DNA from: the human T2T-CHM13v2.0 reference genome, Homo sapiens
Assembly: GCA_009914755.4 (NCBI GenBank)
Contig: CP068257.2
Span: forward strand, 6,112,001 to 6,176,000
DNA length: 64,000 bases
Direction of reading: 5' to 3'
Part shown: one piece after another, positions 1-56,513 of the stretch
Position numbering within the stretch: position 1 is the stretch's first letter
Layout of the letters: each line of letters opens with the position of its first letter
Position numbers and translations under genes: made by a program
The notes under the pieces: generated by a model
What the model saw: the letters and a program-made list of their open reading frames with translations, nothing else
Told to the model about the DNA's origin: nothing
Databases searched by the model: none

Positions 1-3000
1 GAGTTATGTCACAATGCCCCCTTTTGGTAAAGCGTAGACAAAGGTTACATCACCTGGGTGATCAGTGCAGAGATGTGTCACAAGCCCCCTGTAGCCAGAG
101 CGTAGACAAGAGTTACATCAGCTGTGTGATCAGTGCAGTGACATTTCACAATGTACTTGTAGCCATATACTTGAGAAAAGTGACATCAGCTGGGTGATCA
201 GTGCGGAGATATGTCACAAGGCCTGCAGTAGTCAGAGCCTATACAAGAGTTACATCACCTGGGTGATCAGGGCAGAGATATGTCACAATGCCCACTGTAA
301 GCAGATCCCAGACAAGAGTTGCATTACCTCGGTGATCAGTGCAGAGATATGTCTCAATGCCCCCTGTCTGCGAAGCCTATACAAGAGTTACATCATCTCG
401 GTAGTGAGTGCAGTGATATGTTAAAATGCCCCTGTAGGCAGAGCCTAGACAAGAGTTACATCACCTGGGTGATCAGTGCAGAGATATCTTACTATACCCC
501 GTGTAAGCAGAGCCAAGATAAGAGTTACATTACCTGGGTGATCAGTGCAGACATATGTCATAAATCCCACAGTAGGCAAAGCCTAGAGAAGTTTTACATC
601 ACCTCAGCGATCAGTGCAGAGATATGTCCCAATGTCCCTCTAGGCACAGCTTAGACAAGAGTAACGTCTCCTGGGTGATCAGTGCAGAGGTAAGTCACAG
701 TGCCCCCATAGGCAGAGCCTAGACAAGAGTTACATAACCCGAGTGATCCGTGCAGAGTGATGTCACATCGCCCTCTGTAGGCAGAGACTAGAAAAGAGTT
801 ACATCACCTGGGTGATCAGTGCAGAGATATGTCACAATGCCCCCTGTAGGCAGAGCAGAGAAGAGTTGCATCACCTGGGTGATCAGTGTAGAGATATGTC
901 ACAATGCCCCTGTAGGCAGAGCATACAGAAGAGTTGCATCACCTGGGTGATAAGTGCAGAGATATGTCACAATGTCCCCTGTAGGCAAAGCCTAGGCAAG
1001 AGTTACATCACCTTTGTCATCAGATCAGGGATATGTGTAAACACACCTGTAGGCCGAGCATAGAAAACAGTTACATCACCTAGCTGATCAGTGCAGAGAT
1101 ATTTCACAATATCCCCTGTAGGCAGATACTAGACAAGAGTTGAATCACCTCGGTGATCAGTGCAGAGATATTTCACAATGCCCCCTTTGGGCAGAGGGTA
1201 GACAAGATTTACATCACATAGGTGATCAGTGCAGAAGTTTGTCAACTTTCCCTGTAGGCAGTGCTTATAAAAATGTTACATCACATAAGTGATCAGTGCA
1301 GACATATCAGAAAGCTCCTGTAGGCAGAAGTTAGATGAGTTATATCACCTGGGTGATCAGTGCAAAGGTATGTCACAAAGCCCCCTGTAGGGAAAGCCTA
1401 GACAATAGTTATATCATTTGGATGATCAGTGGAGAGGTCTCTCACAATTTCCCTGTAGGCAGAGCTTATACAACAGTTGCATCACCTGGGTGATCAGTAC
1501 GGAGATATGTCACAATGCCCCCATACGCAGATCCAAGACAAGAGTCCGTCACATGGGTGATCAGTGCAGAAATATGTCACAATGCCCCCTTAGGCAGAGC
1601 CTAGACACAAGCCCAATCACCTGGATGATCAGTGCGGATTTATGTCACACAGTCCCTTTAGGCAGATCCTAGACAAGTGTTACATCGCTTGGATGATCAG
1701 TGAAGAGATATGTCACAATGCCACTGTAGGCAGAGCCTAGACAACAGTTACATGACCTAGGTGATCAGTGCAGAGATACTTCGCAATGCGGCTGTAGGCA
1801 GAGCATTGACAAGTGGTATATCACCTGTGTGATCGTTGCAGTGATATGTCACATAACACTCTGTAGGCAGATAGAAGAGAAGAGTTATATCACCTGGGTG
1901 ATCAGTGCAGAGATATGTCACAGGACCCCTGTAGGCAGAGCCTAGACAAGAGTTATATCACCTGGGTGATCAGAGTAGTGATATGTCACGATGCCTTGTA
2001 GCCAGAGCCAAGACTAAAGTTAAAGCACCTGGGAGATCTGTGCAGACATATGTCACAATGTCCCCAGTAGGCAGAGAGCAGGCAATAGTTGGATCACCTC
2101 GGTATCAGTGCAGAGATATGTCTGAATCCCCCTGTGGGCACAGCCTAGAAAAGAGTTACATCACCTCGGTTAACAGTGTAGAGATATGTCAAAATGCCCC
2201 TGTAGGCAGAGCCTACACAAGTGTTACATCACTTAGGTGATCAGTACAGAGATATGTCACAATACCCCCTTTAAGCAGAGCCTAGACAAGAGTTACATCA
2301 CCTGGGTGATCAGTGCAGAGATATGTGACAAGGCCCCTTTAATCAGAGCCTACACAATAGTTACATCACTTGAGTGATCAGTGCAGAGATCTGTCACAAT
2401 GCCCGTTTAGGCAGAGCTTAGACCAGAGTTACATCACCTGGGTGATCAGTGCAGAGATCTGTCACAATGCCCCTATTGGCAGAGGTTAGACCAGAGTTAC
2501 ATCACCTTGGTGATCAGTGCAGAAATATGACACAATGCCGCCAGTAGGCAGATATAGACAAGAGTTACATCAACTGCGTGATCACTGCAGAGAAATGTCA
2601 CAATGCCCCTCTAGGCAGAGCCTAGACAAGAGTCCCATCACCTGGGTGATCAATGCAGAGTTATGTCACAATGCCGCCTGTTGGCAGAGCCTACACAAGG
2701 GTTACATCACCTGGGTGATCAGTGCAGAGATGTGTCAGTAGACCCCTGAAGCCAGTGCCTAGACAAGAGTTACATCACCTGGGTGATCAGTGCAGTGACA
2801 TGTCACAATGTCCCTGTAGCCATATCCTTGACAAAAGTGACATCACCTGGGTGATCAGTGTGGAGATATGTCACAATATCTCCAGTAGGCAGAGCCTAGA
2901 CAAGAGTTACGTCACCTGGGTGATCAGGGCAGTGGTATGTCACAATGCCCCCTGTAACCAGATCCCAGACAAGAGTTGCATCACCTCGGTGATCAGTGCA

Positions 3001-3627
3001 GTGATATGTCTCAATGACCCCACTCGGTGAAGCCTATACAAGAGTTACATCATCTCGGTGATCAGTGCAGTGATATATTAAAATGCCCCTGTAGGCAGAG
3101 CCTAGACAAGTTTTATCACCTGCGTGATCAGTGCAGAGATATCTCACAATACCCCCTGTAAGCAGAGCCTAGACAAGAGTTACATCAGCTGGGTGATCAG
3201 TGCAGGAATATGACATAAATCCCACTATAGGCAAAGCCTACACAAGTTTTACATCACCTAAGTGATCAGTGCCGAGATATGTCACAAAGCTCCTGTTGAC
3301 AGAAGTCAGATGAGGTACATCACCTGGGTGATCTGTGCGAAGGTATGTCAAAAAGCCCCCTGTAGGCAAAGCCAAGACAATAGTTACATCACTTGGGTGA
3401 TCAGTGGCGAGTTCTCTCACAATTCCCCTGTAGGCAGAGCTTACACAACAGTTACATCACCAGGGTGATCAGTGTAGAGATATGTCACAATGTCCCCTGC
3501 AGGCGGAGCATAGAGAAGAGTTTCATCACCTGGGTGATCAGTACAGAGATATGTCACAATGTCCCCTGTAGGCAAAGCCTAGACAAGTGTTACATCACAT
3601 TGTTGATCAGTTCGGAGATGTGTCATG
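1..3627 (+). repeat. Beta-satellite array (68-bp Sau3A-family monomers, + orientation), about 53 monomers, truncated by window start
   Basis: Monomer consensus gttacatcacctgggtgatcagtgcagagatatgtcacaatgccccctgtaggcagagcctagacaagag repeats with a 68-bp period (e.g. acctgggtga at 7861 and 7929); GATC in each monomer; AT-richer than flanking units. Confidence 0.9.
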
Positions 3628-6411
<2,784 letters not shown>

Positions 6412-9400
6412 AATAGTTACATCTCCTGGATGATCAGTTCAGAAATGTGTCACAATGCCGACTCCCTGCAGAGCCTAGAGAAGATTTGCATCATTTCCGT
6501 GATCAGTGCAGAGATATATCACAATGTCCCCTGTACAAAAAGCCTGGAAATGATTTACATCACCTCGGTGATCAGTGCGTAGGTATGTCAGAAATCCCCA
6601 GTAGGCTGAACCTAGACAAGGGTTCCATCACTTAGGTGATCAGTGTAGAGATATGTGAAAATTCCCGTGTAGACAGAGCCTAGACAAGTGTTACATCACC
6701 TAGTGATCAGTGCAGGGATAAGTTGTAAAGCCTCCTGTAGGCGGAGTGTAGACAAGTGTTTCCTCCCTGGGGTGATCAGTGCAAAGTTATGTCACAAAGC
6801 CCCTATAAGCAGAACTTTGACAAGGGTTACATCACCTGTTTGATCAGTGGAAATCTACATCACAAAGCCCCCTGTAGGCAAAGCCCTGACAATTGTTGCA
6901 TCACCTGGGTGAGAAGTGGAGAGATCTGTCACAATGCCCCTGTAGGCAGAGCTTAGACAAGGGTTACATCACCTGGATGATCAGTGCAGAGATATGTCAA
7001 AACGCTACTGTAGGCTGAACCTAGGAATGAGTTACATCAACTGGGTGATCAGTGCAGAGATATGTGAGAATTCCCGTGTAGGCAGAGTCTAGACAAGTGT
7101 TACATCACCTAGGTTATCAGTGCAGGTATAAGTCATGAAGCATCCTGTAGGCAGAGCGTAGACAAGAGTTCCCTCCGCAGAGTGATCAGTGTACAGATGT
7201 GTCACAAAGCCCCTGTAGGCAGAACCTAGACAAGAGTTTCATCACTTGGTTGATCAGTTCAGAGACGTGTCACAATGTCCATGTAGGCAGATCTAAGACA
7301 AGAGTCCATCACCTGGGTGATCAGTGCAGAGATATGTACCAATGTCCCCTGTAGGCAGTGCCTAGACAAGAGTTGCATCACCTCAGAGATCAGTGCACAG
7401 ATATGTCACAAAGCCTTCTGTAGGCAAAGCCCGTACAAGGCTTACATCACCTAGGTGTTCAGTGCAGTGATATGTCACAAAAGTCCCTGTAGACAGAGCC
7501 TAGAAAGAGTTACATCACCTGGGTGATCAGTGGAGATATTTGCCACAATGCCCCCATTGACAGAGCCTAGAAAAAGACTTCCATCACCTGGTTGATCACT
7601 GCAGAGATATGTCATAAAACGCCCTTTTGGCAGAGTATAGAGAAGAGTCCCATTACCTGGGTGATCAGTGCAGAGATATTTCACAATGCCCCCTGTAGGC
7701 AGAGAGTGGACAAGAGTTACATAACCTAGGTGATCTGTGCAGAGCTATGTCAAAATGCACCTGTAGGCAGAGCCTAGATAAATGTTACATCACCTGGGTG
7801 ATCAGTGCAGAGATACGTCACAATACCCCCTGTAGGTGAAGCCTAGGCAAGAGTTACATCACCTGGGTGATCAGTGCAGAGGTATGTCACAAAGCCCCTG
7901 TAGGCAGAGCCTAGACAAGACTTACATCACCTGGGTGATCAGTGCAGAGGTATGTCACAAAGCCCCTGTAGGCAGAGCCTAGACAAGAGTTACATCACCT
8001 GGGTGATCAGTGCAGAGATATGTCACAAATACCCCTCTAGGCAGAGTATAGAGAAGAGTCCCATCACCAGGGTGATCAGTGCAGAGATATTTCACAATGC
8101 CCCCTGTAGGCAGAGAGTGAACAAGAGTTACATAACCTAGTGATCTGTGCAGAGCTATGTCAAAACGCCCCTGTAGGCAGAGCCTAGATAAATGTTAGAT
8201 CAACTGAGTGATCAGTGCAGAGATACGCCACAATACCCCTGAAGGTGGAGCCTAGACAAGAGTTACATCACCTGGGTGATCAGTGCAGAAATATGTCACA
8301 AATCCCATGTAGGCCGAGCCTAGACAAGAGTTATATCTCCTGGGTGATCAGTGCAAAGACATGTCAGAAAGCCCCCTGTAGACAAATCCCAGAAAATTGT
8401 TGCAACACCAGCGTGATCAGTGGAGATATCTGTCACAATTCCCCTTTAGGAGGAGCTTAGACAAGCGTTCCATCACATAAGTGATCAGTGCAGAGATATG
8501 TCACTATGGCCCCATAGGCAGGTCCAAGACAAGACTCCATCACGTGGGTGATCAGTGCAGAAATATGCCACAATGCCGCCAGTAGGCAGATATAGACAAG
8601 AGTTTCATCACCTGCGTGATCACTGCAGAGTTATGTCACAATGCCCCTGTAGGCAGAACCTAGACAAGAGTCCCATCACCTGGGTGATCAGTGCAGAGTT
8701 ATGTCAAAATGCCGCCTTTTGGCAGAGCCTAGACAATGGTTACATCACCTGGGTGATCAGTGCAGAGATGTGTCACAAACCCCCTGTAGCCAGAGTCTAG
8801 ACAAGTGTTACATCAACTGTGTGATCAGTGCAGTGACATGTCACAATATCCCTGTAGCCATATCCTTGACAAAAGTGACAACACCTGGGTGACCAGTGAG
8901 GAGATATGTCACAATGTCTCCAGTAGTCAGAGCCTAGACAAGAGTTACATCACCTGGATGATCAGGCAGCGATATGTCACAATGCCCCCTGTAAGCATAT
9001 CCCAGACAAGAGTTGCATCACCTCGGTGATCAGTGCAGACATATGTCTCAATGCCCCCTGTCGGCGATGCCTATACAAGAGTAACATCATCACGGTGATC
9101 AATGCAGTGATATGTGAAAATGCCTCTGTAGGCAGAGCTTATACAAGAGCTACATCACCTGGGTGATCAGTGCAGAGATATCTCACAATACCCCCTGTAA
9201 GCAGAGCCTAGAAAAGAGTTACATCACCAGGGTGATCAGTGCAGAGATATGTCATAAATCCCACTGTAGGCAAAGCCTAGACAAATTTTACAGCACCTCA
9301 GCGATCAGTGCAGAGATATGTCCCAATATCCCTCTAGGCAGAGCTTAGAGAAGAGTCACATCTCCTGGGTGATCAGTGCAGAGATAAGTCACAATGCCCC

Positions 9401-12400
9401 CGTAGGCAGATCTTAGACAAGAGTTACATAACCCAGGTGATCCGCGCAGAGTGATGTCACAACGCCCTCTGTAGGCAGAGACTAGAAAAGAGTTACATCA
9501 CCTGGGTGATCAGTGCAGAGACATGTGAAAAGTCCCCTTTAAGCAGAGCCAAGACAATAGTTACATCACCTGAGTGATCAGTGCAGAGATCTGTCACAAT
9601 GCCCCTTTAGGCAGAGCTTAGACCAGACTTACATCACCTGGGTGATCAGTGCAGAGATATGTCACAATGCCCCCATAGGCAAATCCAAGACAGGAGTCCG
9701 TCACCTGGGTCATCAGTGCAGAAATACGTGACAAGGCCCCCAGTAGGCAGAGGCTTAAGAAGACTCCCATCACCTGGGTGATCAGTGCAGAGATATTCAA
9801 TAATATATCTGACCTGCAGGCAGAGCATAAGCAAGAGTTACATCACCTACATCATCAGTGCAGAGATATGTCACAAGGCCCCCTACAGGCAGAGCCTGGA
9901 CAAGAGTTACATCACCTCAGTGATCAATGCAGTGATATGTCACTATGCCCCGTAGGCAGAGGCTAGTCAAGCGTTGCATCACCTGGTAGATCAGTGCAGA
10001 GATATTTCACAAATACCCCATACAAGGAGCCTAGACAAGAGTCCCATCACCTGGGTGATCAGTGTAGAAATATGTCACAATGCCCCCATAGGCAGATCCA
10101 ACACAAGAGTTACATCACCTGGGTGATCATTGTAGAGATATTTCACAATGCCCACATAGGCAGAGCCTAGACAAAACTCCCATCACCTGGGTGATCAGTG
10201 AAGAGATATGTCACAAGCCCCCTGTAGGCAGAGCCTAGAAAAGAGTTATATCACCTGGGTGATCAGTGCAGTGATATGTCACAATGCCGTGTAGCCATAG
10301 CCAAGAATAAAGCAATAGCACCTGGGAGATCAGTGCAGAGATACGTCACAATGTTCCCAGTGGGCAGAGACCAGACAAGAGTTAGAACACTTCGGGATCA
10401 GCGCAGAGATATATCTCAATCCCACAGTGGGCACAGCCTAGACAATAGTTACATCACCTCGGTTAACAGTGCAGAGATATGTCAAAATGCCCCTGTAAGC
10501 AGAGCCTACACAAGTGTTACATCACTTAGGTGATCAGTGCAGAGATATGTCACAATACCCCCTGTAAGCAGAGCCTAGACAAGAGTTACATCACGTGGGT
10601 GATCAGTGCAGAGATATGTGACAAGGCCCCTTTAAGCAGAGCCTAGACAATAGTTACATGACCTGAGTGATCAATGCAGAGATCTGTCACAATGTCATTT
10701 TAGGCAGAGCTTAGACCAGAGTTACAACACCTGGCTGATCAGTGCAGAGATATGTCACAATGCCCCCATAGGCAAATCCAAGACAAGAGTCCGTCACCTG
10801 GGTGATCAGTTCAGAAATATGTGAGAATGACACCAGTAGTCAGAACTTAGAGAAGAGTCCCTTCACCTGGGTGATCAGTGCAGAGATATTTCACAAAGCC
10901 CCCTTTGGGCAGAGGGTAGACAAGAGTTACTTCACCTAGATGATCAGTGCAGAGATATGTCACAATGTCCCCTGTAGGCAAAGCCTAGGCAAGAGTTACA
11001 TCACCTTTGTCATCAGTTCAGGGATATGTGAAAACGGCCCTGTAGGCAGAGGCTAGACAAGAGTTACATCACCTCGGTTAACAGTGAAGAGATATGTCAC
11101 AATACCCCCTGTAGGCAGATACTAGACAAGAGTTGAATCACCTGAATGATCAGTGCAGAGATATTTCACAATGCCACCTTTGGGCAGAGGGTAGATAAGA
11201 GTTACATCACCTAGGTGATCAGTGCAGAGATTTGTAAAATTTCCCTGTTTACAGTGCTTATAAAATTGTTACATCACCTAAGTGGTCAGTGCAGAGATAT
11301 GTCACAAAGCTCCTGTAGGCAGAACTTAAAAGAGTGACGTCAACTGGGTGATCATTGCAAAGGTATGTCACAAAGCCCCTGTAGGCAAAGCCTAGACAAT
11401 ACTTACATCACTTGGGTGATCAGTGGCGAGATCTCTCACAATTCCCCTGTAGGCAGAACTTATACAACAGTTACATCACCTAGGTGAACAATGCAGTGAT
11501 TTGTCAAAATTCCCTGTGGGCAGTGCTTATAAAACTGTTACATCATCTAAGAGATCTGTGCAGAGATATGTCACAAAGCTCCTGTAGGCAGAACTTAGAT
11601 GACTTACATCAGCTGTGTAATCAGTGCAAAGGTATGACACAAAGCCCCCTGTAGGCAAAGCCTAGACAATAGTTACATCACTTGGGTGATCAGTGGCAAC
11701 ATCTCTCACAATTCCCCTGTAGGCAGAGCTTATACAACAGTTACATCACCTGGGTGCTCAGTGCAGAGATATGTCACAATGCCCCCATAGGCAGACCCAA
11801 GACATGAGTCCGTTACCTGGGTGATCATTGCAGAAATGTATCACAATGCCCCCTTAGGCAGAGCCTAGACAAAAGCCACAACACCTGGATGATCAGTGCA
11901 GATTTATGTCACAAAGTCCCTTTAGGCAGATCCTAGACAAGAGTTACATCACTTGGATGATCAGTGCAGAGATATGTCACAATGCCATTGTAGGCAGAGC
12001 TTAGACAAGAGTTACATGACCTAGGTGATCAGTGCAGACATACATCACAATCTCCCTGTAGGCAGAGCCTTGGCAAGTGGTACATCACCTGTGTGATCAT
12101 TGCAGGGATATGTCACAAAGCACCATGTAGGCAGATCCTAGAAAAGAGTTACATCACCTGGTTGATCAGTGCAGAGATATGTCAAAATGCCACTGTAGGC
12201 AGAGCCTAGATAAGTTACATGACCTAGGTGATCAGTGCAGATATATATCACAATGCCCCTGTAGGCAGAGCCTTGACAAGTGTTATATCACCTGGGTGAT
12301 CATTGCAGGGATGTCACAAAGCACCGTGTAGGCAGATCCTTGAGAAGAGTTATATCACCTGGGTGATCAGTGCAGAGATATGTCACAAGCCCCCTATAGG

Positions 12401-13429
12401 CAGAGCATAGACAAGAGTTATATCACCTGGGTGATCAGTGCAGTGATATGTCACAATGCCGTGTAGCCAGATCATAGACTAAAGTTACAGCACATGGGAG
12501 ATCAGTGCAGAGATATGTCACAATGTCCCCAGTAGGCAGTGACCAGGCAATGTCCACCTGTGGGCACAGCCTAGACAAGAGATACGTCACCTCGGTTAAC
12601 AGTGCAGAGATATGTCAAAAAGCCCCTGTAGGCAGATCCTACACTACTGTTTCATCACTTAGGTGATCAGTGCAGAGATATGTCACAATACTCCCTGTAA
12701 ATAGAGCCTAGACAAGAGTTACATCACCTGGGTCATCAGTGCAGAGATCTGTCACAATGCCCCTTTCGGGAGAGCTTAGACCAGGGTTACATCACCTGGG
12801 TGATCAGTGCAGAGATATGTCACAATGCCCCCATAGGCAAATCCAAGACAGTAGTCCATCACGTGGGTGATCAGGGCAGACATGTGTGACAATGTCCCCA
12901 GTAAGCAAAGCCTAGAGAAGGGACACATCACCTGGGTGATCAGTGCAGAGATATTTCACAATGCCCCTGCTGGCAGAGCGTAAACAAGAGTTACATCACG
13001 TAGATCATCAGTGCAGAGATATGTCACAAGGCCCCCTATACGCAGAGCCTGGACAAGTGTTACATCACCTCAGTGATCAATGCAGTGATATGTCACTATA
13101 CCCCGTAGGCAGAGCATAGTCAAGCGTTACATCATCTGGGTGATCAGTGCAGAGATATGTCACACAGCCCCCATACACAGAGCCTAGAAGAGTCCCAACA
13201 CCTGGGTCATCAGTGCAGAAATATGTCACAATGCCCCCGTAGGCAGATCCAACACAACAGTTACATCACCTGGGTGATCAGTGTAGAGATATGTCACAGT
13301 GGCCCCATAGGCAGAACCTTGACAAAAGTCCCATCACCTGGGTGATCAGCGCAGAGATATGTCGCAAAGCCCCTGTAGGCAGAGCCTAGAGAAGAGTTAT
13401 ATAACTTTGTTGATCAGTTCGGAGATATG
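6412..13429 (+). repeat. Beta-satellite array (+), about 103 monomers, with local higher-order duplications
   Basis: Continuous 68-bp periodicity; near-identical adjacent monomers 7861-7928 and 7929-7996; a roughly 6-monomer block at 7680-7860 repeated at 8090-8270. Confidence 0.9.
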
Positions 13430-16176
<2,747 letters not shown>

Positions 16177-16675
16177 ATTTTTACATCTCCTGGATGATCG
16201 GTTCAGAAATATGTCACAATGCCCCCTCCCTGAGGAGCCTAGAGAAGATTTGCATCATTTGGTTGATCAGTGCAGAGATATATCACAATGTCCCTTGTAC
16301 AAAAATGCTGGAAATGATTTACATCACCTCGGTGATCAGTGCATAGGTATGTCAGAAATACCCAATAGGCTGAACCTAGAAAAGGGTTACATCACTTAGG
16401 TGATCAGTGTAGAGATTTATGAAAATTCCCGTGGAGACAGAGCCTAGAGAAGTGTTACATCACCTAGTGATCAGTGCAGGGATATGTTGTAAAGCCTCCT
16501 GTAGGCAGAGTGTAGACAAGTGTTTCCTCCCTGGGGGGATCAGTGCAGAGTTATGTCACAAAGCCCCTGTAAGCAGAACCTTGTCAAGGGTTACATCACC
16601 TGTTTGATCAGTGGAAATGTATATCACAAACCCCCTGTAGGCAAAGTGCAGACAATTGTTACATCACCCTGTAGG
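16177..16675 (+). repeat. Beta-satellite (+), about 7 monomers, ending at the orientation switch
   Basis: The same unit-proximal monomer series that follows unit 1. It terminates in …gacaattgttacatcac|cctgtaggggggtattgtgacat. Confidence 0.85.
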
Positions 16676-16690
16676 GGGGTATTGTGACAT
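16660..16690. other. Orientation-switch (inversion) junction of the satellite/composite array: + orientation to the left, - orientation to the right
   Basis: Left of about 16675 monomers read gttacatcacctgggtgatcagtgcagag…. Right of it they read the reverse complement …ggcattgtgacatatctctgcactgatcacccaggtgatgtaac…. The junction falls in the quasi-palindromic cctgtagg/cctacagg part of the monomer. All D4Z4-like units left of it are + and all units right of it are -. Confidence 0.85.
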
Positions 16691-18312
16691 ATCTCTGCAC
16701 TGATCGCTCAGTTGATCTAATATTTATCTAGGCTCTGCCTACAGGGGCGTTTTGACATAGCTCTGCACAGATCACTAGGTTATGTAACTCTTGTTCACTC
16801 TCTGCCTACAGGGGGCATTGTGAAATATCTCTGCACTGATCACCCAGGTGATGGGACTCTTCTCTATACTGTGCCTTGAGGGGTATTTGTGACATATCTC
16901 TGCACTGATCACCCAGGTGATGTAACATTTATCTAGGCTCTGCCTACAGGGGCGTTTTGACATAGCTCTGCACGGATCACCTAGGTTATGTAACTCTTGT
17001 CCACTCTCTGCCTACAGGGGGCATTGTGAAATATCTCTGCACTGATCACCCAGGTGATGGGACTCTTCTCTATACTCTGCCAAAAGGGCGATTTGTGACA
17101 TATCTCTGCACTGATCGCCCAGGTGATGGAAGTATTTTCTAGGCTCTGTCTATGGGGGCATTGTGTCAAATATCTCCACTGATCACCCAGGTGATGTAAC
17201 TCTTTCTAGGCTCTGTCTACAGGGATTTTTGTGACATATCACTGCACTGAACACCTAGGTGATGTAAGCCTTGTACGGGCTTTGCCTACAGAAGGCTTTG
17301 TGACATATCTGTGCACTGATCTCTGAGGTGATGCAACTCTTGTCTAGGCACTGCCTACAGGGGCTATTGGTACATATCTCTGCTCTGATCACCCAGGTGA
17401 TAGACTCTTGTCTTAGATCTGCCTACATGGACATTGTGACACATCTCTGAACTGATCAACCAAGTGATGAAACTATTGTCTAGTCTCTGCCTACAGGGGC
17501 TTTGTGACACATCTCTGCACTGATCACCCTTGGGAAGGAACTATTGTCTACGCTCTGCCTACAGGAGGCTTCATGACTTATACCTGCCCTGATAACCTAG
17601 GTGATGTAACAATTGTCTAGACTCTGCCTACACGGGAATTCTCACATATCTCTGCACTGATCACCCAGTTGATGTAACTCATTCCTAGGTTCAGCCTACA
17701 GGAGCGTTTTGACATATCTCTGCACTGATCACCCAGACGTTGTAACCCTTGTCTAAGCTCTGCCTACAGGGGCATTGTGACAGATCTCTCCACTGCTCAC
17801 CCAGGTGATGTAACAATTGTCTGGGCTTTGCCTACTGGGGGTTTGTGATATACATTTCCACTGATCAAACAGGTGATGTAACCCTTGTCAAGGTTCTGCT
17901 TACAGAGGCTTTGTGACATAACTCTGCACTGATCACCCCAGGGAGGAAACACTTTTCTACACTCTGCCTACAGGAGACTTTACAACTTATCCCTGCACTG
18001 ATCACTAGGTGATGTAACACTTGTCTAGGTTCTGTCTACACGGGAATTTTCACATATCTCTACACTGATCACCTAAGTGATTTAACCCTTGTCCATGTTC
18101 AGCTTACTGGGGATTTCTCACATACGTATGCACTGATCACCGAGGTGATGTAAATCATTTCCAGGCTTTTTGTACAGGGGACATTGTGATATATCTCTGC
18201 ACTGATCACCCAAATGATGCAAATCTTCTCTAGGCTCCGCAGGGAGGAGGCCTTGTGACACATTTCTGAACCGATCATCCAGGAGATGTAACTATTCTCC
18301 AGGCTTTGACTA
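16676..18312 (-). repeat. Beta-satellite array (- orientation), about 24 monomers
   Basis: Reverse-complement monomers. ORF-track entries 16775..16963(-) and 16981..17169(-) are near-identical in protein to 7952..8140(+), so this block is homologous to the satellite downstream of unit 1 but inverted. Confidence 0.9.
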
Positions 18313-21076
<2,764 letters not shown>

Positions 21077-23447
21077 ATGACACATCTCTGAACTGATCAA
21101 AAGTGATGTAACTCTTGTCTAGACTCTGCCTACAGGGGCTTTGTGACATATCTCTGCACTGGTCACCCAGGGGATGGGACTTATGTCTAGGCTCTGCCTA
21201 TGGGAGCATTGTGACATATCTCTACACTGATCACCCAGGTGATGTAACTGTTGTGGTGGATCTGCCTATGGGGCATAGTGACATATCACTGCAATGATCA
21301 CCGAGGTGATGTAACTCTTATCCAGGTTCTACCTATAGGGGGCCTTGTGACATATATCTGCACTGATCCCATAGGTTATGTAACACTTGCTTACGCTCTG
21401 CCAGCAGGGGCATTGTGAAATATGTCAGCACTGATCACCCAGGTGATGGGACTCTTCTCTAGGCTCTGCCTACTGGGGGCATTGTCAAATATTTCTGCAC
21501 TAATAACCCAGGTAACGGACTCTTGCCTTGGATTTGCCTATGGGGGCATTGTGACATATCTCTGCACTGATCACCCAGGTGATGTAACTCTGGTCTAAGC
21601 TTTGCCTAAAGGGGCATTGTGACAGATCTCTGCACTGATCACTCAGGTGATGTAACTATTGTCTAGGCTCTGCTTAAAGGGGGCTTGTAACATATCTCTG
21701 CACTGATCACCCAGGTGATGTAACACTTGCCTGGGCTCTGCTTCCAGGGGGTGTTGTGACATATCTCTGCACTGATAACCAAAGTGATGTAACACTTGTG
21801 TAGGCTCTGCCTACAGGGGCATTTTGACATATCTCTGCACTGTTAACCTTGGTGATGTAACCCTTGTCTACGCTGTGACCACAGGGGGATTGAGACATAT
21901 CTCTGCACTGATCCCGAGGTGATCCAACTCTTGCCTGGTCTCTGCCTACTGGGGAAATTGTGGCATATCTCTGCACTGATCTCCCAGGTGCTGTAACTTT
22001 AGTCTAGGCTCTGGCTACACGGCATTGTGACATATCACTGCACTGATCACCCAGGTGATATAACTCTTGTCTAGGCTCTGCCTACAGGGGGCTTGTGACA
22101 TATCTTTGCATTGATCACCCAGATGATATAACTCTTCTCTAGGATGTGCCTACAGGGTGCTTTGTGACATATCCCTGCAATGATCACCCAGGTGATATAC
22201 CACTTGTCAAGGCTCTGCCTACAGGGGCATTGTGATGTATCTCTGCACTGATCACCTAGGTCATGTAACTCTTGTTTAGGCTTTACCTACAGGGGCGTTG
22301 TGACATATCTCTGCAGTGATCACGCAGGTGATGTAACTCTTGTCTATATCTGCCTACTGGCGGCATTGTGACATATTTCTGCATTGATCACATAGGTGAT
22401 GCAATCTTGTCTAAGATCTGACTATGGGAGAATAGTGAAATATTTCTGCACTGATCACTCATGTTATGTAACGCTTGTCTGAGCTGCGCCTAAAGGGGAA
22501 TTGTGACAGATATCTCCACTGATTACCCAGGTGAAGTAACAGTTTTCTGTGATTTGTCTACAGGGGGCTTTGTGACATGTCTTTGCTCTGATCACCCAGG
22601 AGATGTAACTCTTGTCTAGGATCGGCCTACAGGGGCTTTGTGTCATGTTTCTGCACTGATCACCCTGGGGAGGGAACTCTTGTCTACTCTCTGCCTACAG
22701 GAGGCTCTTTGACTTATACCTGCACTGATAACCTAGGTGATGTAACACTTGTCTAGGCACTGCCTACACGGGAATTCTCACATATCTCTGCACTGATCAC
22801 ACAGGTGATGTAACTCCTGTCTAGGTTCAGCCTATAGGAGTGTTTTGACATATCTCTGCACTGATCACCCAGGTGATGTAACCCTTCTCTAAGCTCTGCC
22901 TACAGGGTCATTGTGACAAATCTCTCCACTGCTAACCCAGGTGATGTAACAATTGTCTGGGCTATGCCTACTGGGGGTTTGTGATATACATTTACACTGA
23001 TCAAACAGGTGATGTAACCCTTGTCAAGGTTCTGTCTACAGGGGCTTTGTGACATATCTCTGCACTGATCACCCCAGGGAGGAAACACTTGTCTACACTC
23101 TGCCTAAAGGAGGCTTTACGACTTATCCCTTCACTGATCACTAGGTGATGTAACACTTGTCAAGGCTCTGTCTACACGGGAATTTTCACATATCTCTGCC
23201 CTGATCACCTAAGTGATGTTACCCTTGGCTAGGTTCAGGTTACTGGGGATTTCTGACATACCTATGCACTGATCACCGAGGTGATGTAAATCATTTCCAG
23301 GTTTTTTGTATAGGGGACATTGGGATATATCTCTGCACTGATCACCCAAATGATGCAAATCTTTTCTACCCTCCACAGGGAGGGGGCATTGTGACATATT
23401 TCTGAACAGATCATCCAGGAGATGTAACTATTCTCCAGGCTTTGACT
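21077..23447 (-). repeat. Beta-satellite array (-), about 35 monomers
   Basis: 68-bp periodic reverse-complement monomers; begins with the invariant unit-distal monomer series ctgaactgatcaa…gtgatgtaactcttgtctag. Confidence 0.9.
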
Positions 23448-24317
23448 AAAGAGCGTCGGAAGGTGTTGGGAGAGCCTCAGCCAGAATTTCACGGACGGAC
23501 AAGGGTACAGAGAGGCCAGCGGGTTCCATTGCAGGTCAGCCGGGGATTGCAATGAGTGCACCTCTAGACAGGCGTCCAGCAAACAGAGCTAGAGGTCTGC
23601 GTTCCCCCGCCGGGCGCTCCATGGTTTCAGCTGGGAGGCTGCAGGGGCACGGGCGGGCCGGCGACGGTGGCTTGGAGGCACAGAGGAGGCGAGCCGCTGG
23701 AAGGGTGTCTGGCCTGGACGCTGGGCGCCCCGGTGTTTCACGGGACTGGGGTCTCCACCCAGCCCAGGGAAGAACGCATTTTCCGGGGGTGGGTAGTGAG
23801 GGTGGGGAAGGTGTGCAAAGGCGGGGGTGGGGTGGAGGAAAGGCATGAGAGCTTTGCCTGGGCTGCTCCCACAGCCCAGGCGGCTGTCCCCAAACCCGAA
23901 CGTGTGCAGTAGGTAGCCCACCTGCTGGTACCTAGGCCGGCTCTGGGATCCCCTGGATTCCCAGGAAAGAATGACAGTTCTCTGCTGTGTGGAGTCTCTC
24001 ACCGGGCCTAGAACTACAAGACAGGAATCCCAGGCCGGTCAGCCCAGTGGTCGTGGCGGGGGGAAGACACTCCCCTCCATAGAGAGCCAGGTGTTCCCCG
24101 CGAAAGAGAGGCCACCGCCCTGCCCCGACCCGACCTCCTCCCAACCACGCGTCCTAAAGCTCCTCCAGCATAGCCCGGTATTACTCCACGCTGAGGAGTG
24201 CTTCCACCGAGGCGGCCTCTTCCAAGGCCTCCAGCTCCCCCAGGGCCTCCGGTTCTAGGAAATGTTGCACCTGCTGCAGAAACTCCGGGCTCGCCAGTAG
24301 CTCATCCAGCAGCAGTG
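23448..24317 (-). repeat. Truncated D4Z4/LSau-like unit 4 (3' flank plus the last ~54 DUX4-like codons) fused directly to beta-satellite
   Basis: The unit's 3' boundary (…ctccaggctttgac|taaagagcgtcggaagg) is intact. Homology to full units stops at …ctcatccagcagca|gtgcatcctgcagtgatcctgcagtgcaacctccagtgatcacgcaggtgatgtaac (about 24317-24345). Confidence 0.8.
24154..24317 (-). pseudogene. DUX4L: DUX4-like C-terminal fragment (copy 4)
   Basis: Reverse-complement translation …[51 protein letters not shown]; the 5' part of the gene is absent. Confidence 0.75.
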
Positions 24318-26712
24318 CATCCTGCAGTGATCCTGCAGTGCAACCTCCAGTGATCACGCAGGTGATGTAACTCTTGTCTATATCTGCCTACTGGCAGCAT
24401 TGTGGCATATTTCTGCACTGATCACCCAGGTGATGGACTCTTTTCTTGGATCTGCCTATGGGGGCATAGTGAATTATCTCTGCACTGAAGATCACCCGGG
24501 TTACGTAACTCTTGTCTAGGCTCTGCCTATGGTGGCATTGTGACTTACCTCTGCATTGATCACCCAGGAGATGAGACTCTTGTCTAAGCTCTGCCTAGAG
24601 GGACATTGGGACATATCACTGCTCTGATCGCTGAGGTGATGTAAAACTTGTCTAGGCTTTGCCTACAGGTGGCTTTGTGACATACCTTTGCACTGATCAC
24701 CCAGGTGATGTAACTCATCTACCTTCTGCCTACAGGAGCATTGTGACATATCTCTGCACTGATCAGTTAGGTGATGTAACACCTTTATAAGCACTGCCTG
24801 CAGGGAATTTTGACAAATCTCTGCACTGATCACCTAGGTGTTGTAACTCTTATCTACCCTCTGCCCAAAGGGGGCATTGTGAAATATCTCTGCACTGATC
24901 ACCCAGGTGATTCAACTCTTGACTAGAATCTGCCTACAAGGGGTATTTTGAAATATCTCTGCACTGATCAACTAGGTGATGTAACTGTTGTCTAGGCTCT
25001 GCCTACAGGGGCGTTTTCACATATCCCTGAACTGATGACTTAGGTGATGTAACTCTTGCCAAGGCTTTGCCTACAGGGGACATTGTGACATTTCTCTGCA
25101 CTAATCATCCAGGTGATGCAACTCTTCTCTATGCTCTGCCTACATGGGACATTGTGACATATCTCTGCCCTGATCACCCAGGTGATGTAACTCTTTTCTA
25201 GTCTCTGCCTACAGAGTGCGTTGTGACATCACTCTGCAGGAATCACCCAGGTTATGCAACGCTTGTCTAGGCTCTGCCTATGGGGGCATTGGGACTTATA
25301 TCTGCACGGATCACCCGTTTTATGTAACTCTTGTCTAGGCTCTGCCAATGGTGGCATTGTGACTTATCTCTGCACTGATCACCGAGGAGATGTGACTATT
25401 GACTAAGCTCTGAATAGAGGTACATTGGGACATATCTCTGCACTGATCGCTGAGGTGATATAAAACTTGTCTAGGCTTTGCCTATGGTTTGATTTATGAC
25501 ATATCTCTGCACTGATCACCCAGGTGATGTAACTCTTGTCTAGGCTCTCCTTACAGGGGGTATTGTGAGATATCTCTGCATTGATCACCCAGGTGATGTA
25601 ACTCTTGTCTAGGCTCTGTCTACAGGGATTTTTGTGTCATATCACTGCACTGATCACCTAGGTGAGGTAAGCCTTGTATGGGCTTTGACTACAAAAGGCT
25701 ATGTGACATATCTTTGAACCGATCTCTGAGGTGATGCAACTCTTGTCTAGGCGCTGCCTACACGGGACATTGGTACATTTCTCTGCACTTTTCACCCAGG
25801 TGGTGGACCCTTGTCTTAGATCTGCCTACATGGACATTGTGACACATCTCTGAACTGATCAACCAAGTGATGAAACTCTTGTCTAGGCTCTGTCTACATG
25901 GGCTTTGTGACACATCTCTGCACTGGTCATCCTGGGGAGGGAACTTTTGTCTATGCTTTGCCTACAGGAGGCTTTATGACTTATACCTGCACTGATAACC
26001 TAGCTGATGTAACACTTGTCTAGGCTCTGCCTACATGGGACTTCTCACATATCTCTGCACTGATCACCCAGGTGATGTAACTCCTGTCTAGGTTCAGACT
26101 ACAGGAGGGTTTTGACATATCTCTACACTGATCACCCAGGTGATGTAACCCTTGTGTAAGCTCTGCCTACAGGGTCATTTTGACCTATCTCTCCACTGCT
26201 GATCCAGGTGATGGAACAATTGTATGGGCTTTGCCTACAGGGGGCTTTGTGATATATATTTCCACTGATCAAACAGCCGATGGAACCTTTTTCAAGGTTT
26301 TGCTTACAGGGGCTTTGTGACATATCTCTGTACTGATCACCCCAGAGAGGAAACACTTGTCTACACTCTGCCTATAGGAGGTTTTACGACTTATCCCTGC
26401 ACTGATCACTAGGTGATGTAACACTTTTCTAGGTTCTGTCTACACGGGAATTTTCATGTATCTCTACACTGATCAGCTAAGTATTCTGACCCTTGTCTAG
26501 GTTCAGTCTACTGGGGATTTCTGATATACCTATGCACTGATCACCGAGGTGATGTAAATCATTTCCAGGCTTTTTGTACAGCAGACTTTGTGATGTATCT
26601 CTGTACTGATCACCCAAATGATGCAAATCTTCTCTAGGCTCTGCAGGGAGGGGTCATTGTGACATAATTCTGAACTGATCATCCAGTAGATGTAACAATT
26701 CTCCAGGCTTTG
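24318..26712 (-). repeat. Beta-satellite array (-), about 35 monomers (including about 28 bp of junction filler)
   Basis: 68-bp periodicity; length almost identical to the preceding block 21077-23447. Confidence 0.9.
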
Positions 26713-29486
<2,774 letters not shown>

Positions 29487-32400
29487 TGACACATCTCTGA
29501 ACTGATCAACAAAGTGATGTAACTCTTGTCTAGGCTCTGCCTACAGGGGCTTTGTGACATATCTCTGCACTGATCACCCAGGTGATGGGACTTTTGTCTA
29601 GGCTCTGCCTATGGGGGCATTGTGACATATCTCTACACTGATCACCCAGGTGATGTAACCCTTGTGTTGGATCTGCCTATGGGGCCATTGAGACACATTT
29701 CTGCACTGATCACCCAGGTGATTGGACTCTTGTCTAGGCTCCGTATATGGGAGCTTTGTGATATATCTCTGCACTGATCAACCAGGTGATGTAACGCTTG
29801 ACTAGGTTCTGCCTACGGGGCATAGTGACATATTATTGCATTGATCACTGACGTGATGTAACTCTTGTCCAGGCTCTGCCTATAGGGGGCCTTGTGACAT
29901 ATCTCTGCACTGATGATCTACGTGATGTAACTATTGCTTGCGCTCTGCCTGCAGGGGCATTGTGAAATATCTCTGCACTGATTACCCAGGTGATGGGACT
30001 CTTCTCTAGGCTCTGCCTACTGGGGGCATAGTCACATATTTCTGCACTGATCACCCAGGTGACGGACTTTTGTCTTGGATTTGCCTATGGGGGCGTTGTG
30101 ACATAGCTCTGCACTGATCACCCAGGTGATGTAACTCTGGTCTAAGCTCTGCCAAAAGGGGCATTGTGAAAGATCTCTGCAATGATCACTCAGGTGGTGT
30201 AACTATTGTCTGGGCTCTGCTGAAAGGGGCCTTGTCACATATCTCGGCACTCATCACCCAGGTGATGTAACTCTTGTCTAGGCTCTGCTTACAAGGAGTA
30301 TTGTGATATATCTCTGCACCAATCATCTAAGTGATGTAACAATTGTGTAGGCTCTGCCTACAAGGGCATTTTGACATATCCCTGCACTGTTAACCCTGTT
30401 AACCGAAGTGATGTAACTCTGGTCTAGGCTGTGCCCACAGGGGAATTGAGACATATCTCTGCACTGATCCCGAGGTGATCCAAATCTTGCCTGTTCTCTG
30501 CCTACTGGGAACATTGTGACATATCTCTGCACTGATCTATCATAGTGGTGTAACTTTAGTCTAGGCTCTGGCTACACGGCATTGTGACATATCACTGCAC
30601 TGATCACCCAGGTGATATAACCTTTGTCTAGGCTCTGCCAACAGGGGGCTTGTGACATATCTCTGCAGTGATCACCCAGGTGATATAACTCTTCTCTAGT
30701 ATCTGCCTACAGGATGCTTTGTGACATATCCCCGCAATGATCACCCAGGTGATATACCTCTTGTCAAGGCTCTGCCTACAGGGGCATTGCGATGTATCTC
30801 TGCACTAATCACCTAGGTCATGTTACTCTTGTCTAGGCTCTGCCTACAGTGGCATTGTGACATATCTCTGCACTGATCACCCAGGTGATGTAACTCTTTT
30901 CCAGGATCTGCCTAAAGGGTGCATTGTGACATATCCCTTCAATGATCACCCAGGTGATGTACCACTTTTCAAGGCTCTGCCTACAGGGACATTCCGATGT
31001 ATTTCTGCACTGATCACCTAGGTCATGTAACACTTGTCTGGGCTCCACCTACAGTGGCATTGTGATGTATCTCTGCACTGATCACCCAGGTGATGTAACT
31101 CTTGTCTAGGCTCTGCCTACAGTGGCATTTTGACATATGACTGCACTGATCACTGAGATGATGTAACTGTTTTATAGTCTTCGCCGACAGGGGGCATTGA
31201 GACATATCTCTGCACTGATCACCGAGGTGATGCAACTCTTGTCTGGGATCTGCTTATTGGGGGCATTGTGACTTGTCTCTGCCGTGATCACCCAGGTGAT
31301 GTAACTCTTGTCTAGGCTCTGCCTTCTGGAGACATTGTGACATATCTCCACACTGATCACCCAGGTGATGTCACTTTTGTCAAGGATACGTCTACGGGGC
31401 ATTGTGACAAGTCACTGCACTGCTCACACACCTGATGTAAATCTTGTCTAGGCTCTGGCTACAGGGGACTTGTGAGATATCTCTGCACACATCACCCAGG
31501 TGATATAACCTTTGTCTAGGCTCTGCCAAAAGGGGGCATTGTGACATAATTCTGCACTGATCACCCAGGTGATGGGACTCTTGTCTAGGCTCTGCCTACA
31601 GGGGAATTGTGACATATCTCTGCTCTGATCATCCAAGTGATGTAACACTTGTCTAGGGACTGCCTAAAGAGACTTTGTGACATAACTCTGCACTGATCAT
31701 CCAGGTGATGGGGCTTTTGTCTAGGCTCTGCCTAAGGGGGCATTGTGACATATTTCTGCACTGATCACCCAAGTGACAGACTCTTGTCTTGGATCTGCCT
31801 ATGGCGGCATTGTGACATATCACTGCACTGATCACCCAGGTGATGTAACTGTTGTATAAGCTCTGCCTACTGGGGAATTGTGAGAGATCTCGCCACTGAT
31901 CACCCAAGTGATGTAACTATTGTCAAGGATTGGCCTATAGGGGGTTTTGTGACATACCTTTGCACTGATCACCCAGGTGATGGACTCTTGTCTTGGATCT
32001 GCCTATGGGGGCATAGTGACATATCTCTGCACTGATCACTCATGTGATGTAAGGCTTTTCTAAGCTGCGCCTAAAGGGGAATTGTGACAGATATCTCCAC
32101 TGATCACCCAGGTGATGTAACAATTTTCTGGGATTTGTCTAAAGGGGGCTTTGTGACATGTCTTTGCACCGATCACCCTGGAGATGTAACTCTCGTCTAG
32201 GATCGGCCTACAGGGGCTTTGTGACATATTCCTACACTGATCACACAGGTGTTGTAACTCTTGTTTAGGCTCCACCTACAGGGGGTATCGTGACGTATCT
32301 CTGCATTGATCATCCAGGTGATGTAACTCTTGTCTAGACTCCACCTACAGGGGGTATTGTGACGTATCTCTGCACTGATCACCCAGGTGATGTAACATTT

Positions 32401-33163: not shown

Positions 33164-35935
<2,772 letters not shown>

Positions 35936-40961: not shown

Positions 40962-43730
<2,769 letters not shown>

Positions 43731-49096: not shown

Positions 49097-51246
<2,150 letters not shown>

Positions 51247-53817: not shown

Positions 53818-56513
<2,696 letters not shown>

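What the first reader, a model, noticed from the sequence alone, without database searches (positions are those of the whole stretch)
16600..16760. Head-on orientation switch of the whole composite array at about 16,675
Left of about 16,675 the beta-satellite monomers and both D4Z4-like units (1, 2) are in + orientation. Right of it, every monomer and all eight remaining units are in - orientation. The switch occurs inside a single monomer, in its cctgtagg/cctacagg quasi-palindrome. Both arms present the unit 3'-side facing the centre, so the junction is tail-to-tail. It is asymmetric: about 0.5 kb of satellite from unit 2 on the + arm versus about 1.64 kb from unit 3 on the - arm. The - arm next to the junction is homologous to satellite about 1.5 kb downstream of unit 1 (ORF-track entries 7952..8140+, 16775..16963- and 16981..17169- encode near-identical peptides on opposite strands). 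Units 2 and 3 carry different disabling mutations, so this is an old inverted-duplication or inversion breakpoint, not a young perfect palindrome. Inverted junctions of this kind are candidate fold-back or hairpin-forming sites and are typical rearrangement scars in acrocentric or pericentromeric satellite.
Basis: seen in the sequence. Interest (0 to 1): 0.6.

Follow-up and report, generated by a model that had tools for sequence, protein, structure and literature searches.

The report
Old strand-switch scar in beta-satellite/D4Z4 array
At about position 16,675 a human-type array of beta-satellite DNA with decayed DUX4 (D4Z4-like) units flips orientation once; it is a real but ordinary old rearrangement scar, of a kind already counted in the hundreds in complete human genome assemblies.

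Summary
All 165 beta-satellite monomers left of 16,671 are in + orientation. All 429 right of 16,697 are in - orientation. Two D4Z4-like units are + and eight are -.

The two sides meet tail-to-tail within 16,669-16,676, at a CCTGTAGG core followed by GGGGTATTG. The join is non-homologous. Position ~0.5 kb of one unit's 3' flank is fused to inverted position ~1.6-1.8 kb of another. This gives a ~3.6-kb imperfect inverted repeat (87% identical) with a 1,135-bp spacer.

The flanking units U2 and U3 are no closer to each other than any other pair (85-86%, a star phylogeny). Their disabling DUX4 mutations are all different. So this is neither a young palindrome nor a read or assembly fold-back artefact.

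The most likely origin is an old microhomology or template-switch (fold-back type) inverted join. A two-break inversion is nearly as likely. It has no function. It gives only modest local hairpin potential and blocks in-register exchange between the arms.

[quoted passage not shown] Interest is low.

The parts
1..16675 (+). Plus arm of the composite array. It holds 165 beta-satellite monomers and units U1 and U2, and runs off the left end of the window.
3626..6414 (+). U1, a D4Z4-like unit (DUX4 pseudogene with 1 premature stop)
6909..8239 (+). Distal 3' flank of U1. It is the closest relative, in inverted orientation, of the sequence just right of the junction (95.6-95.8%, with a 205-bp extra block at 7741-7944).
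13433..16178 (+). U2, a D4Z4-like unit (DUX4 pseudogene: start codon lost, 4 frameshifts, stops at codons 96, 164 and 241)
16179..16668 (+). Proximal 3' flank of U2 (beta satellite). Homology to the other units' flanks ends at 16668 (..TTACATCACC).
16668..16679 (.). Junction core CCTGTAGGGGGG. CCTGTAGG is in + orientation but out of phase. GGGG begins the - arm. The breakpoint lies within 16669-16676.
16676..17803 (-). Spacer of the inverted repeat. This is the distal 3' flank of U3, which has no counterpart on the U2 side.
17804..18293 (-). Proximal 3' flank of U3, the inverted counterpart of 16179-16668 (93.3%)
18294..21077 (-). U3, a D4Z4-like unit (DUX4 pseudogene: 3 frameshifts, stops at codons 21, 30, 43, 77 and 85)
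16676..64000 (-). Minus arm of the composite array. It holds 429 monomers and units U3-U10, and runs off the right end of the window.

Best explanation
**What it is.** This is a genuine, single, old rearrangement junction inside an LSau/beta-satellite composite array. The array consists of divergent D4Z4 units, which are DUX4 pseudogenes, interspersed with 68-bp beta satellite. The sequence is human or great-ape type, most likely from an acrocentric short arm or the chr1 pericentromere.

**How it formed.** Two copies of the same composite (unit plus 3' flank) were fused tail-to-tail at non-equivalent positions. About 0.5 kb into one flank was joined to about 1.6-1.8 kb into the other, inverted. 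Homologous recombination therefore did not make it. I think the most likely route is a replication or repair template switch of the fold-back type. In that route a 3' end finishing in the monomer's CCTGTAGG core re-primed on the same-polarity strand about 1.1-1.3 kb away and copied back. The result is an inverted repeat with a 1,135-bp spacer.

**Shown.**
- The orientation switch.
- The breakpoint position, to within 8 nt.
- The non-homologous register of the join.
- The spacer.
- The age, or lack of sisterhood, of the two arms.

**Inferred.**
- The template-switch route.
- The role of the quasi-palindrome.

**Function.** None. It is a scar. Its consequences are a modest local hairpin potential in single-stranded DNA, a convergent arrangement of dead DUX4 copies, and a barrier to in-register unequal exchange between the two arms.
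For: **The switch is real and single.**
- Orientation is absolute: 165/165 monomers are + and 429/429 are -.
- All self-alignments break at 16668-16682.

**The ancestral state is an uninterrupted unit plus flank.**
- The left homology ends at 16668 and the right begins at 16672-16676. Five or more in-window paralogs continue unbroken past both points.
- One external human-derived contig (L001) also continues unbroken.

**The join is out of register.** Left position 16668 corresponds to U1-flank position 6905. Right position 16676 corresponds to 8239.

**The CCTGTAGG at the junction is + arm material.** It occurs 46 times in the + arm and never in the 429 - monomers. The GGGG that follows matches the 4-G run of the closest right-hand parent.

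**The anatomy resembles sequenced human fold-back inverted duplications.**
- The inverted repeat has arms ..16668 and 17804.. with 1,135 nt between them.
- That spacer lies inside the 766-70,466 bp range of those duplications. Their junctions carry 2-8 bp of microhomology or small insertions (PMC3907307).

**It is old and not a read artefact.**
- The arms are 87.3% identical.
- The units form a star phylogeny at 85-86%.
- U2 and U3 share 3-6 derived sites, which is background level.
- Their disabling mutations are all private.

**The class is known.**
Against: - No reads are available, so a chimeric assembly join between two real loci cannot be formally excluded.
- A fold-back duplication predicts that U2 and U3 were identical sisters at the time of the event. 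They are no closer than any other pair. Either the event is as old as the amplification burst, or it was a two-break inversion or juxtaposition of units that had already diverged.
- The arms are not mirror images beyond the generic composite homology.
- The exact junction has two readings. One is a 34-nt deletion plus a blunt join at CCTGTAGG|GGGG. The other is a join at CATCACC|TAGG with 3 inserted nt. Usable microhomology is only 0-3 nt.
- The window shows only one junction, so there is no test of recurrence at the quasi-palindrome.
Confidence: 0.5

Rival explanations
1. This is a two-break rearrangement repaired by end joining. It could be a balanced inversion of a multi-unit segment of a once unidirectional array, or an ectopic insertion or translocation that placed two arrays head-on. 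One break fell about 0.5 kb into one unit's flank. The other fell about 1.6-1.8 kb into another unit's flank.
For: - U2 and U3 are not sisters and the arms are not mirrored. This model predicts that without any assumption about age.
- Three unassigned nucleotides (CTG) or 0-3 nt of microhomology at the joint suit end joining.
- Beta-satellite arrays are reported to have a 'mosaic inversion structure'.
- Pericentromeric inversions are common and polymorphic.
Against: - No second junction is visible in 64 kb.
- The junction carries an exact + orientation CCTGTAGG that is out of phase. A short templated step explains that more easily than a plain blunt joint.
- U3's distal flank abuts the junction, and its nearest relative is on the opposite arm: U1's flank at 95.6-95.8%, against 94% or less for same-strand copies.
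Confidence: 0.36
2. This is an assembly or library artefact. Candidates are a chimeric join, a missed-adapter or fold-back read, or an MDA-type inverted chimera.
For: - There is only one junction, and its 24-mer was not found in any other public sequence I could search.
- No reads are available.
Against: - Fold-back, missed-adapter and MDA artefacts make arms that are about 100% identical. Here the arms are 87-93% identical with a 1,135-bp spacer, and U2 and U3 carry different indels, stops and frameshifts.
- U2 and U3 are only 2.1 kb apart and differ from every paralog by 4-15%. Any read longer than 3 kb would place them uniquely.
- The collections searched are prokaryotic or metagenomic, so the negative results carry almost no weight.
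Confidence: 0.04
3. This is an inversion made by non-allelic homologous recombination between pre-existing inverted composite units, or by sister-chromatid U-type fusion (breakage-fusion-bridge).
For: The array is full of 2.8-kb units and kb-scale flanks at 85-95% identity that could serve as recombination substrates.
Against: - NAHR joins homologous positions in register. Here flank position ~0.5 kb is joined to flank position ~1.6-1.8 kb, with no shared homology across the joint.
- U-type sister fusion gives no spacer. Here the spacer is 1,135 bp.
- A unidirectional array has no inverted partner for the first event.
Confidence: 0.02

Closest known systems
Strand switches ('inversion breakpoints', 'mosaic inversion structure') in human beta-satellite arrays of chr1 and the acrocentric short arms, as described for T2T-CHM13 (bioRxiv 10.1101/2021.07.12.452052; PMC9186530)
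   Same: - It is a beta-satellite array interspersed with LSau/D4Z4-like units, with an abrupt change of monomer strand inside the array.
- It is old and divergent: units are 83-87% identical and flanks 90-95%. That matches the 80-95% reported for pericentromeric LSau composites.
   Different: Nothing in kind. The nucleotide-level anatomy added here (breakpoint within 8 nt, out-of-register join, 1,135-bp spacer, CCTGTAGG core at the joint) is not given in the texts I could read. I could not place the window on a chromosome.
Fold-back inverted duplications with a disomic spacer (Hermetz et al. 2014, PMC3907307)
   Same: - Inverted arms are separated by a short single-copy spacer. Here it is 1,135 bp, and the reported range is 766-70,466 bp.
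- There is little or no microhomology, or a few inserted bases, at the joint.
   Different: - The reported cases are recent, with identical arms, and lie next to terminal deletions.
- Here the arms are 87% identical, are not demonstrably sister copies, and sit inside a satellite array with no visible terminal deletion.
The single inverted D4Z4 unit (DUX4c) proximal to the 4q35 array, and its chr22 paralog (PMC10620044)
   Same: A D4Z4-like unit lies in inverted orientation relative to neighbouring D4Z4-like units, in a D4Z4/beta-satellite landscape.
   Different: - At 4q35 one isolated inverted unit lies tens of kb from the array, in unique sequence near FRG2.
- Here whole multi-unit arms oppose each other and the joint is inside beta satellite.
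Large near-perfect palindromes and cruciform-prone inverted repeats (Y-chromosome palindromes, the rDNA distal-junction palindrome, PATRRs)
   Same: Inverted-repeat geometry.
   Different: - Those have arms above 99% identical or are AT-rich with no spacer. They are maintained by arm-to-arm gene conversion or are recurrently unstable.
- Here the arms are 87% identical, the sequence is GC-rich to neutral, and the spacer is 1.1 kb.

Membership tests
Beta satellite (68-bp Sau3A family) | Tandem head-to-tail monomers of about 68 bp | tested here: met
   TRF finds period 68 (with 137 and 205 multiples) across all AT-richer blocks. There are 594 nhmmer monomer hits.
Beta satellite (68-bp Sau3A family) | Conserved Sau3A (GATC) site per monomer, and identity to the published or Dfam BSAT consensus | tested here: inconclusive
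   The consensus contains GGTGATCAGTGCA, which includes GATC. No Dfam or RepeatMasker library was available, so identity with the curated consensus rests on my own knowledge.
LSau-beta-satellite composite (LSAU-BSAT) / divergent D4Z4 | GC-rich ~3-kb unit carrying a DUX4 double-homeobox ORF | tested here: met
   - The consensus of 8 units gives an intact 422-aa ORF.
- It has two Pfam homeodomains, E = 8.6e-36.
- It matches PDB 5z6z 'Double homeobox protein 4' at E = 1.7e-92, identical at 148 of 152 residues.
LSau-beta-satellite composite (LSAU-BSAT) / divergent D4Z4 | Units interspersed with beta-satellite blocks, at 80-95% intra-array identity in pericentromeric arrays | tested here: met
   Ten units are separated by 0.6-7 kb of satellite. 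Units are 83-87% identical and flanks 90-95%.
LSau-beta-satellite composite (LSAU-BSAT) / divergent D4Z4 | 5'-truncated ~3.1-kb form with reduced CpG density (~5.4%) | tested here: met
   All full units start at the same consensus position and are 2.7-2.8 kb long. CpG density is 5.1-6.1%.
LSau-beta-satellite composite (LSAU-BSAT) / divergent D4Z4 | Location on acrocentric short arms, the chr1 pericentromere or another known site | not testable with these tools
   No human or primate genome could be searched.
Fold-back inverted duplication | Inverted arms separated by a single-copy spacer of about 0.7-70 kb | tested here: met
   The arms end and start at 16668 and 17804, with 1,135 nt between them.
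Fold-back inverted duplication | 2-8 bp of inverted microhomology, or a small insertion, at the spacer/inversion joint | tested here: inconclusive
   There are 0-3 nt of possible microhomology (AGG/CCT), or 3 inserted nt (CTG). The arms have diverged about 5-7% since, so the original joint cannot be read exactly.
Fold-back inverted duplication | The two arms are copies of one another (sisters at the time of the event) | tested here: not met
   - U2-U3 identity is 86.4%, against 85-86% for all pairs.
- U2 and U3 share 3-6 derived sites, which is background. U1-U3 share 12 and U6-U9 share 43.
- This is compatible only with an event as old as the amplification burst.
NAHR inversion between inverted repeats | The joint lies in register within homologous sequence | tested here: not met
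   The joined positions are 1.1-1.3 kb apart in flank coordinates. The parental sequences share no homology across the joint.
Near-perfect palindrome / cruciform-prone inverted repeat | Arms above 99% identical with a short or absent spacer | tested here: not met
   Arm identity is 87.3% and the spacer is 1,135 bp.

The most novel reading that the evidence does not exclude
The 8-nt quasi-palindromic core of the beta-satellite monomer (CCTGTAGG, whose reverse complement is CCTACAGG) may be a recurrent hot spot for snap-back or template-switch priming. If so, many of the more than 200 strand switches in the arrays that include human beta satellite would sit at the same monomer phase. The 'mosaic inversion structure' of these arrays would then have a sequence-encoded cause. 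This junction fits that idea. It has a + orientation CCTGTAGG followed directly by - orientation GGGGTATTG, and a flipped core (TGTA->TACA) occurs once elsewhere at 9880-9889. But it is a single case.
Probability: 0.15. Interest if true: 0.45.

Novelty: already known. Interest (0 to 1): 0.2.

Why it matters
It matters little on its own. It is one nucleotide-resolved example of the strand switches that the T2T papers counted in beta-satellite composite arrays. It shows that such a switch can be a primary, out-of-register, non-homologous joint and not a product of recombination between repeats. It also shows that the flanking DUX4-like units were already decaying, or decayed afterwards, independently.

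It has practical value in three ways.
- The unique 24-mer at the joint is a marker for the locus.
- Presence or absence of that 24-mer in other humans and apes would date the event.
- The joint provides a template for a genome-wide phase survey of beta-satellite strand switches.

Tried and rejected
1. **Exact junction 24-mer** in genome contigs and metagenome contigs: no hits. These collections are prokaryotic or metagenomic, so the result is uninformative.
2. **Generic 'switch at the core' pattern** CCTGTAGGGG-N(1-4)-TTGTGACATATC in both collections: no hits. I have no external evidence for recurrence.
3. **The only ORF crossing the junction** (16520-16687, 55 aa). It has no exact record. A homology search returned five proteins, all from unbroken paralogs of the flank and none with the junction-specific C-terminus.
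4. **My first reading was revised.** I first took the + arm to end at CATCACC (monomer phase 54) and the CCTGTAGG to be a purely chimeric string. The motif never occurs in the 429 - monomers, and the better-registered right-hand parent starts at GGGG, so I changed that reading.
5. **The first BLAST register was corrected.** It placed 16672 opposite 8039. The correct pairing is 16676 opposite 8239, with a 205-bp indel.
6. **Mirror symmetry of the arms beyond one composite:** not found.
7. **U2/U3 sisterhood:** rejected.
8. **Shared premature stops as evidence of common descent:** rejected. The recurrent stops at codons 21, 35 and 111 are CGA->TGA changes at CpG sites.
9. **The Science versions of the T2T centromere and repeat papers** were not held. 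I used the bioRxiv versions instead.
10. **One folding script timed out** and was rerun in a smaller form.
Full report
**What the window is.** The 64 kb alternate between two kinds of sequence.
- One is blocks of a 68-bp tandem repeat at 45-49% GC.
- The other is ten GC-rich units of up to 2.8 kb at about 65% GC.

The majority consensus of the eight longer units restores an intact 422-codon ORF. That ORF has two Pfam homeodomains (E = 8.6e-36). Its first 152 residues match solved human DUX4 (PDB 5z6z) at 148 positions (E = 1.7e-92). The units are therefore D4Z4-like, and the repeat is beta satellite.

This is the 'beta-composite' or LSAU-BSAT arrangement described for T2T-CHM13. Three measured values match the published ones.
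- The units are 5'-truncated and 2.7-2.8 kb long.
- Their CpG density is 5.1-6.1%. The reported value is about 5.4%.
- Intra-array identity is 83-87% for units and 90-95% for flanks. The reported range for pericentromeric LSau composites is 80-95%.

I could not place the window on a chromosome or confirm the species, because no primate genome is searchable here.

**The observation.** It is correct in every checkable detail.
- A profile search with the monomer consensus gives 165 '+' monomers, all within 1-16671, and 429 '-' monomers, all within 16697-64000. There is no exception.
- AT skew flips sign at the same place.
- Two units are + (U1 3626-6414, U2 13433-16178) and eight are - (U3 18294-21077 through U10).
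- The DUX4 ORF direction shows that U2 and U3 point their 3' ends at each other, so the junction is tail-to-tail.
- U2 is 497 bp from the joint and U3 is 1,618 bp from it.
- All self-alignments, direct or inverted, stop between 16668 and 16682.
- The 24-mer across the joint occurs once in the window, even with three mismatches.

**Anatomy of the joint.** Left of the joint the sequence follows the 3' flank that most units share. The flanks of U1, U3 and U7 were aligned explicitly. The sequence follows this flank up to ..TTGTTACATCACC at 16668. There the paralogs continue TGGGTGAG.., but the window reads CTGTAGGGGGGTATTG.

Right of the joint, the best relative is the reverse complement of U1's distal flank.
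- 16676-16970 matches 8239-7945 at 95.6%.
- 16971-17803 matches 7740-6909 at 95.8%.
- The two stretches are separated by a 205-bp (three-monomer) indel.

That parent reads ..CCACCTTCA|GGGGTATTGTG.., so clear - arm homology starts at the GGGG at 16676. The 8-mer CCTGTAGG at 16668-16675 is the + orientation of the monomer core. It occurs 46 times in the + arm and never in the 429 - monomers, which carry CCTACAGG 117 times. I therefore assign it to the + arm.

It is, however, out of phase with the last + monomer. Two readings are possible.
- About 34 nt (TGGGTGAG...AATGC) were lost between CATCACC and CCTGTAGG, followed by a blunt join of GG to GGGG. This reproduces the observed six Gs exactly.
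- The arms meet at CATCACC / TAGG.. with three unassigned bases (CTG) and further small changes.

Either way the breakpoint lies within 16669-16676, with at most about 3 nt of usable microhomology (AGG/CCT). A causal role for the quasi-palindrome is not shown.

**Geometry.** The left arm stops at flank position ~0.5 kb. The right arm stops at flank position ~1.6 kb in U3 coordinates, or ~1.8 kb in U1 coordinates. The true inverted repeat is therefore 13007-16668 against 17804-21367. Over 3,512 aligned positions it is 87.3% identical (93.3% in the satellite part). The spacer is 1,135 bp, at 16669-17803.

An independent copy of the composite exists in contig L001, a human-derived contig from an ENA gut-metagenome assembly. 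It is colinear with U1 plus flank through both breakpoint equivalents. Its alignments to the two arms of the window stop at 16668 and 16672. The ancestral state was therefore an uninterrupted unit plus at least 1.9 kb of flank, and the window's joint truncates two such copies at different places.

**Age and relationships.**
- The unit bodies form a star phylogeny. Every pair among the eight longer units is 84.6-86.6% identical.
- Each of U1, U2 and U3 has about 90-105 private changes at sites where the outgroup units agree. Shared derived sites are at background level (1-6) for nearly all pairs, including U2-U3 (3-6).
- Every unit carries its own stops and frameshifts. U2 has lost its start codon and has four frameshifts and stops at codons 96, 164 and 241. 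U3 has three frameshifts and stops at 21, 30, 43, 77 and 85. None is shared between them.
- Stops that recur among other units (codons 21, 35, 111) are CGA->TGA changes at CpG sites, so they do not indicate common descent.
- There is no mirror symmetry of the arms beyond the generic homology of composites.

One mild departure from the star is that U3's flank is closest to U1's flank, which lies on the opposite arm. The identity is 94-98%, against 89-94% for same-strand copies. U1 and U3 share 12 derived sites. Two explanations fit. The - arm segment next to the joint may have been copied from nearby + arm sequence. Or there may have been later gene conversion between the only nearby inverted partners. 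I cannot tell them apart.

**Mechanism.**
- Homologous recombination between inverted units is excluded for this joint, because the joined positions are out of register and share no homology.
- Sister-chromatid U-type fusion is excluded by the spacer.
- Read-level or MDA-type fold-back artefacts are excluded, because they give identical arms.

Two non-homologous routes remain.

Route (a) is a fold-back or template-switch event. A 3' end in the + arm ending in ..CCTGTAGG re-primes on the same-polarity strand about 1.1-1.3 kb away and copies back. The local anatomy matches sequenced human fold-back inverted duplications. Those have spacers of 766-70,466 bp and 2-8 bp of microhomology or small insertions (PMC3907307). 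The possible extra 34-nt skip would be a typical serial template switch.

Route (b) is a two-break inversion or juxtaposition repaired by end joining. In a composite array it produces exactly the same local picture. It also explains without further assumptions why U2 and U3 are not sisters.

I put route (a) at about 0.5, route (b) at about 0.36, an artefact at about 0.04, and NAHR or U-type fusion at about 0.02. The rest is unassigned. The discriminating observation is a reciprocal head-to-head joint elsewhere in the array, which is outside this window.

**Consequences.** Single-stranded 200-nt windows that span the joint fold to -33 to -37 kcal/mol. Fifty-five head-to-tail satellite windows average -19.9 +/- 3.5, with a minimum of -26.6. 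Against shuffles of the same sequence the z-score is -4.3. This is the expected result of placing inverted monomers of about 75% identity side by side. It is far from a cruciform-prone palindrome. I see no evidence of function. The published methylation data describe these divergent D4Z4 copies as uniformly hypermethylated.

[quoted passage not shown] The genome paper notes a 'mosaic inversion structure' in proximal BSat arrays. This finding is one such breakpoint. What is added here is its base-level anatomy. The kind is known, so the interest is low (0.2).

The only lead with some novelty is that the monomer's quasi-palindromic core might be a recurrent switch point. One junction cannot test that, and two pattern scans of the public collections found nothing.

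Noticed in passing
window 56514-57130 (with 57131-57850 and 53802-56513): A 617-bp GC-rich (63%) segment has no other copy in the window. It lies between the 5' end of unit U9 and a partial unit (consensus 1904-2624). It looks like the extra 5' part of a full-length D4Z4. If so, a directly tandem ~1.3-unit D4Z4-like stretch is embedded in the composite array.
   Followed up: partly
window 9880-9889: One '+' monomer carries CCCCTACAGG, with the core 4-mer flipped (TGTA->TACA). This is the only such case among 165 + monomers, and none of the 429 - monomers shows the converse. It may be a quasi-palindrome template-switch mutation or two adjacent transitions.
   Followed up: partly
all units (U1-U9), consensus built: The majority consensus of eight decayed units restores an intact 422-aa DUX4 ORF, and all unit pairs are about equally diverged (85-86%). 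This suggests one ancient amplification burst of a then-coding unit, followed by independent decay without homogenisation. Recurrent stops at codons 21, 35 and 111 are CGA->TGA changes.
   Followed up: yes
window 49084-51244 (U8): U8 has a 623-bp internal deletion that removes ORF nt 207-829 of the DUX4-like sequence.
   Followed up: partly
3' flanks of U6 (about 31500-33151) and U9 (about 52200-53801): These two flanks are 87-93% identical to each other but only 75-79% identical to the flanks of U1, U2, U3, U5, U7 and U8. At least two composite subfamilies are therefore interleaved in the - arm.
   Followed up: no
window 7741-7944 versus about 16970: A 205-bp (three-monomer) block is present in U1's flank and absent from U3's otherwise 95-98% identical flank. 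TRF also reports 137-, 205- and 480-bp periods, so there is local higher-order structure in the satellite.
   Followed up: partly
L001 (ENA ERZ982218, human gut metagenome contig k127_155370, 4241 bp) and L002 (JGI 3300032031): Public metagenome assemblies contain human-derived contigs of this composite (unit 3' half plus flank, about 87% identical to the window copies). Gene callers have turned their satellite ORFs into 'proteins' of 55-88 aa.
   Followed up: partly
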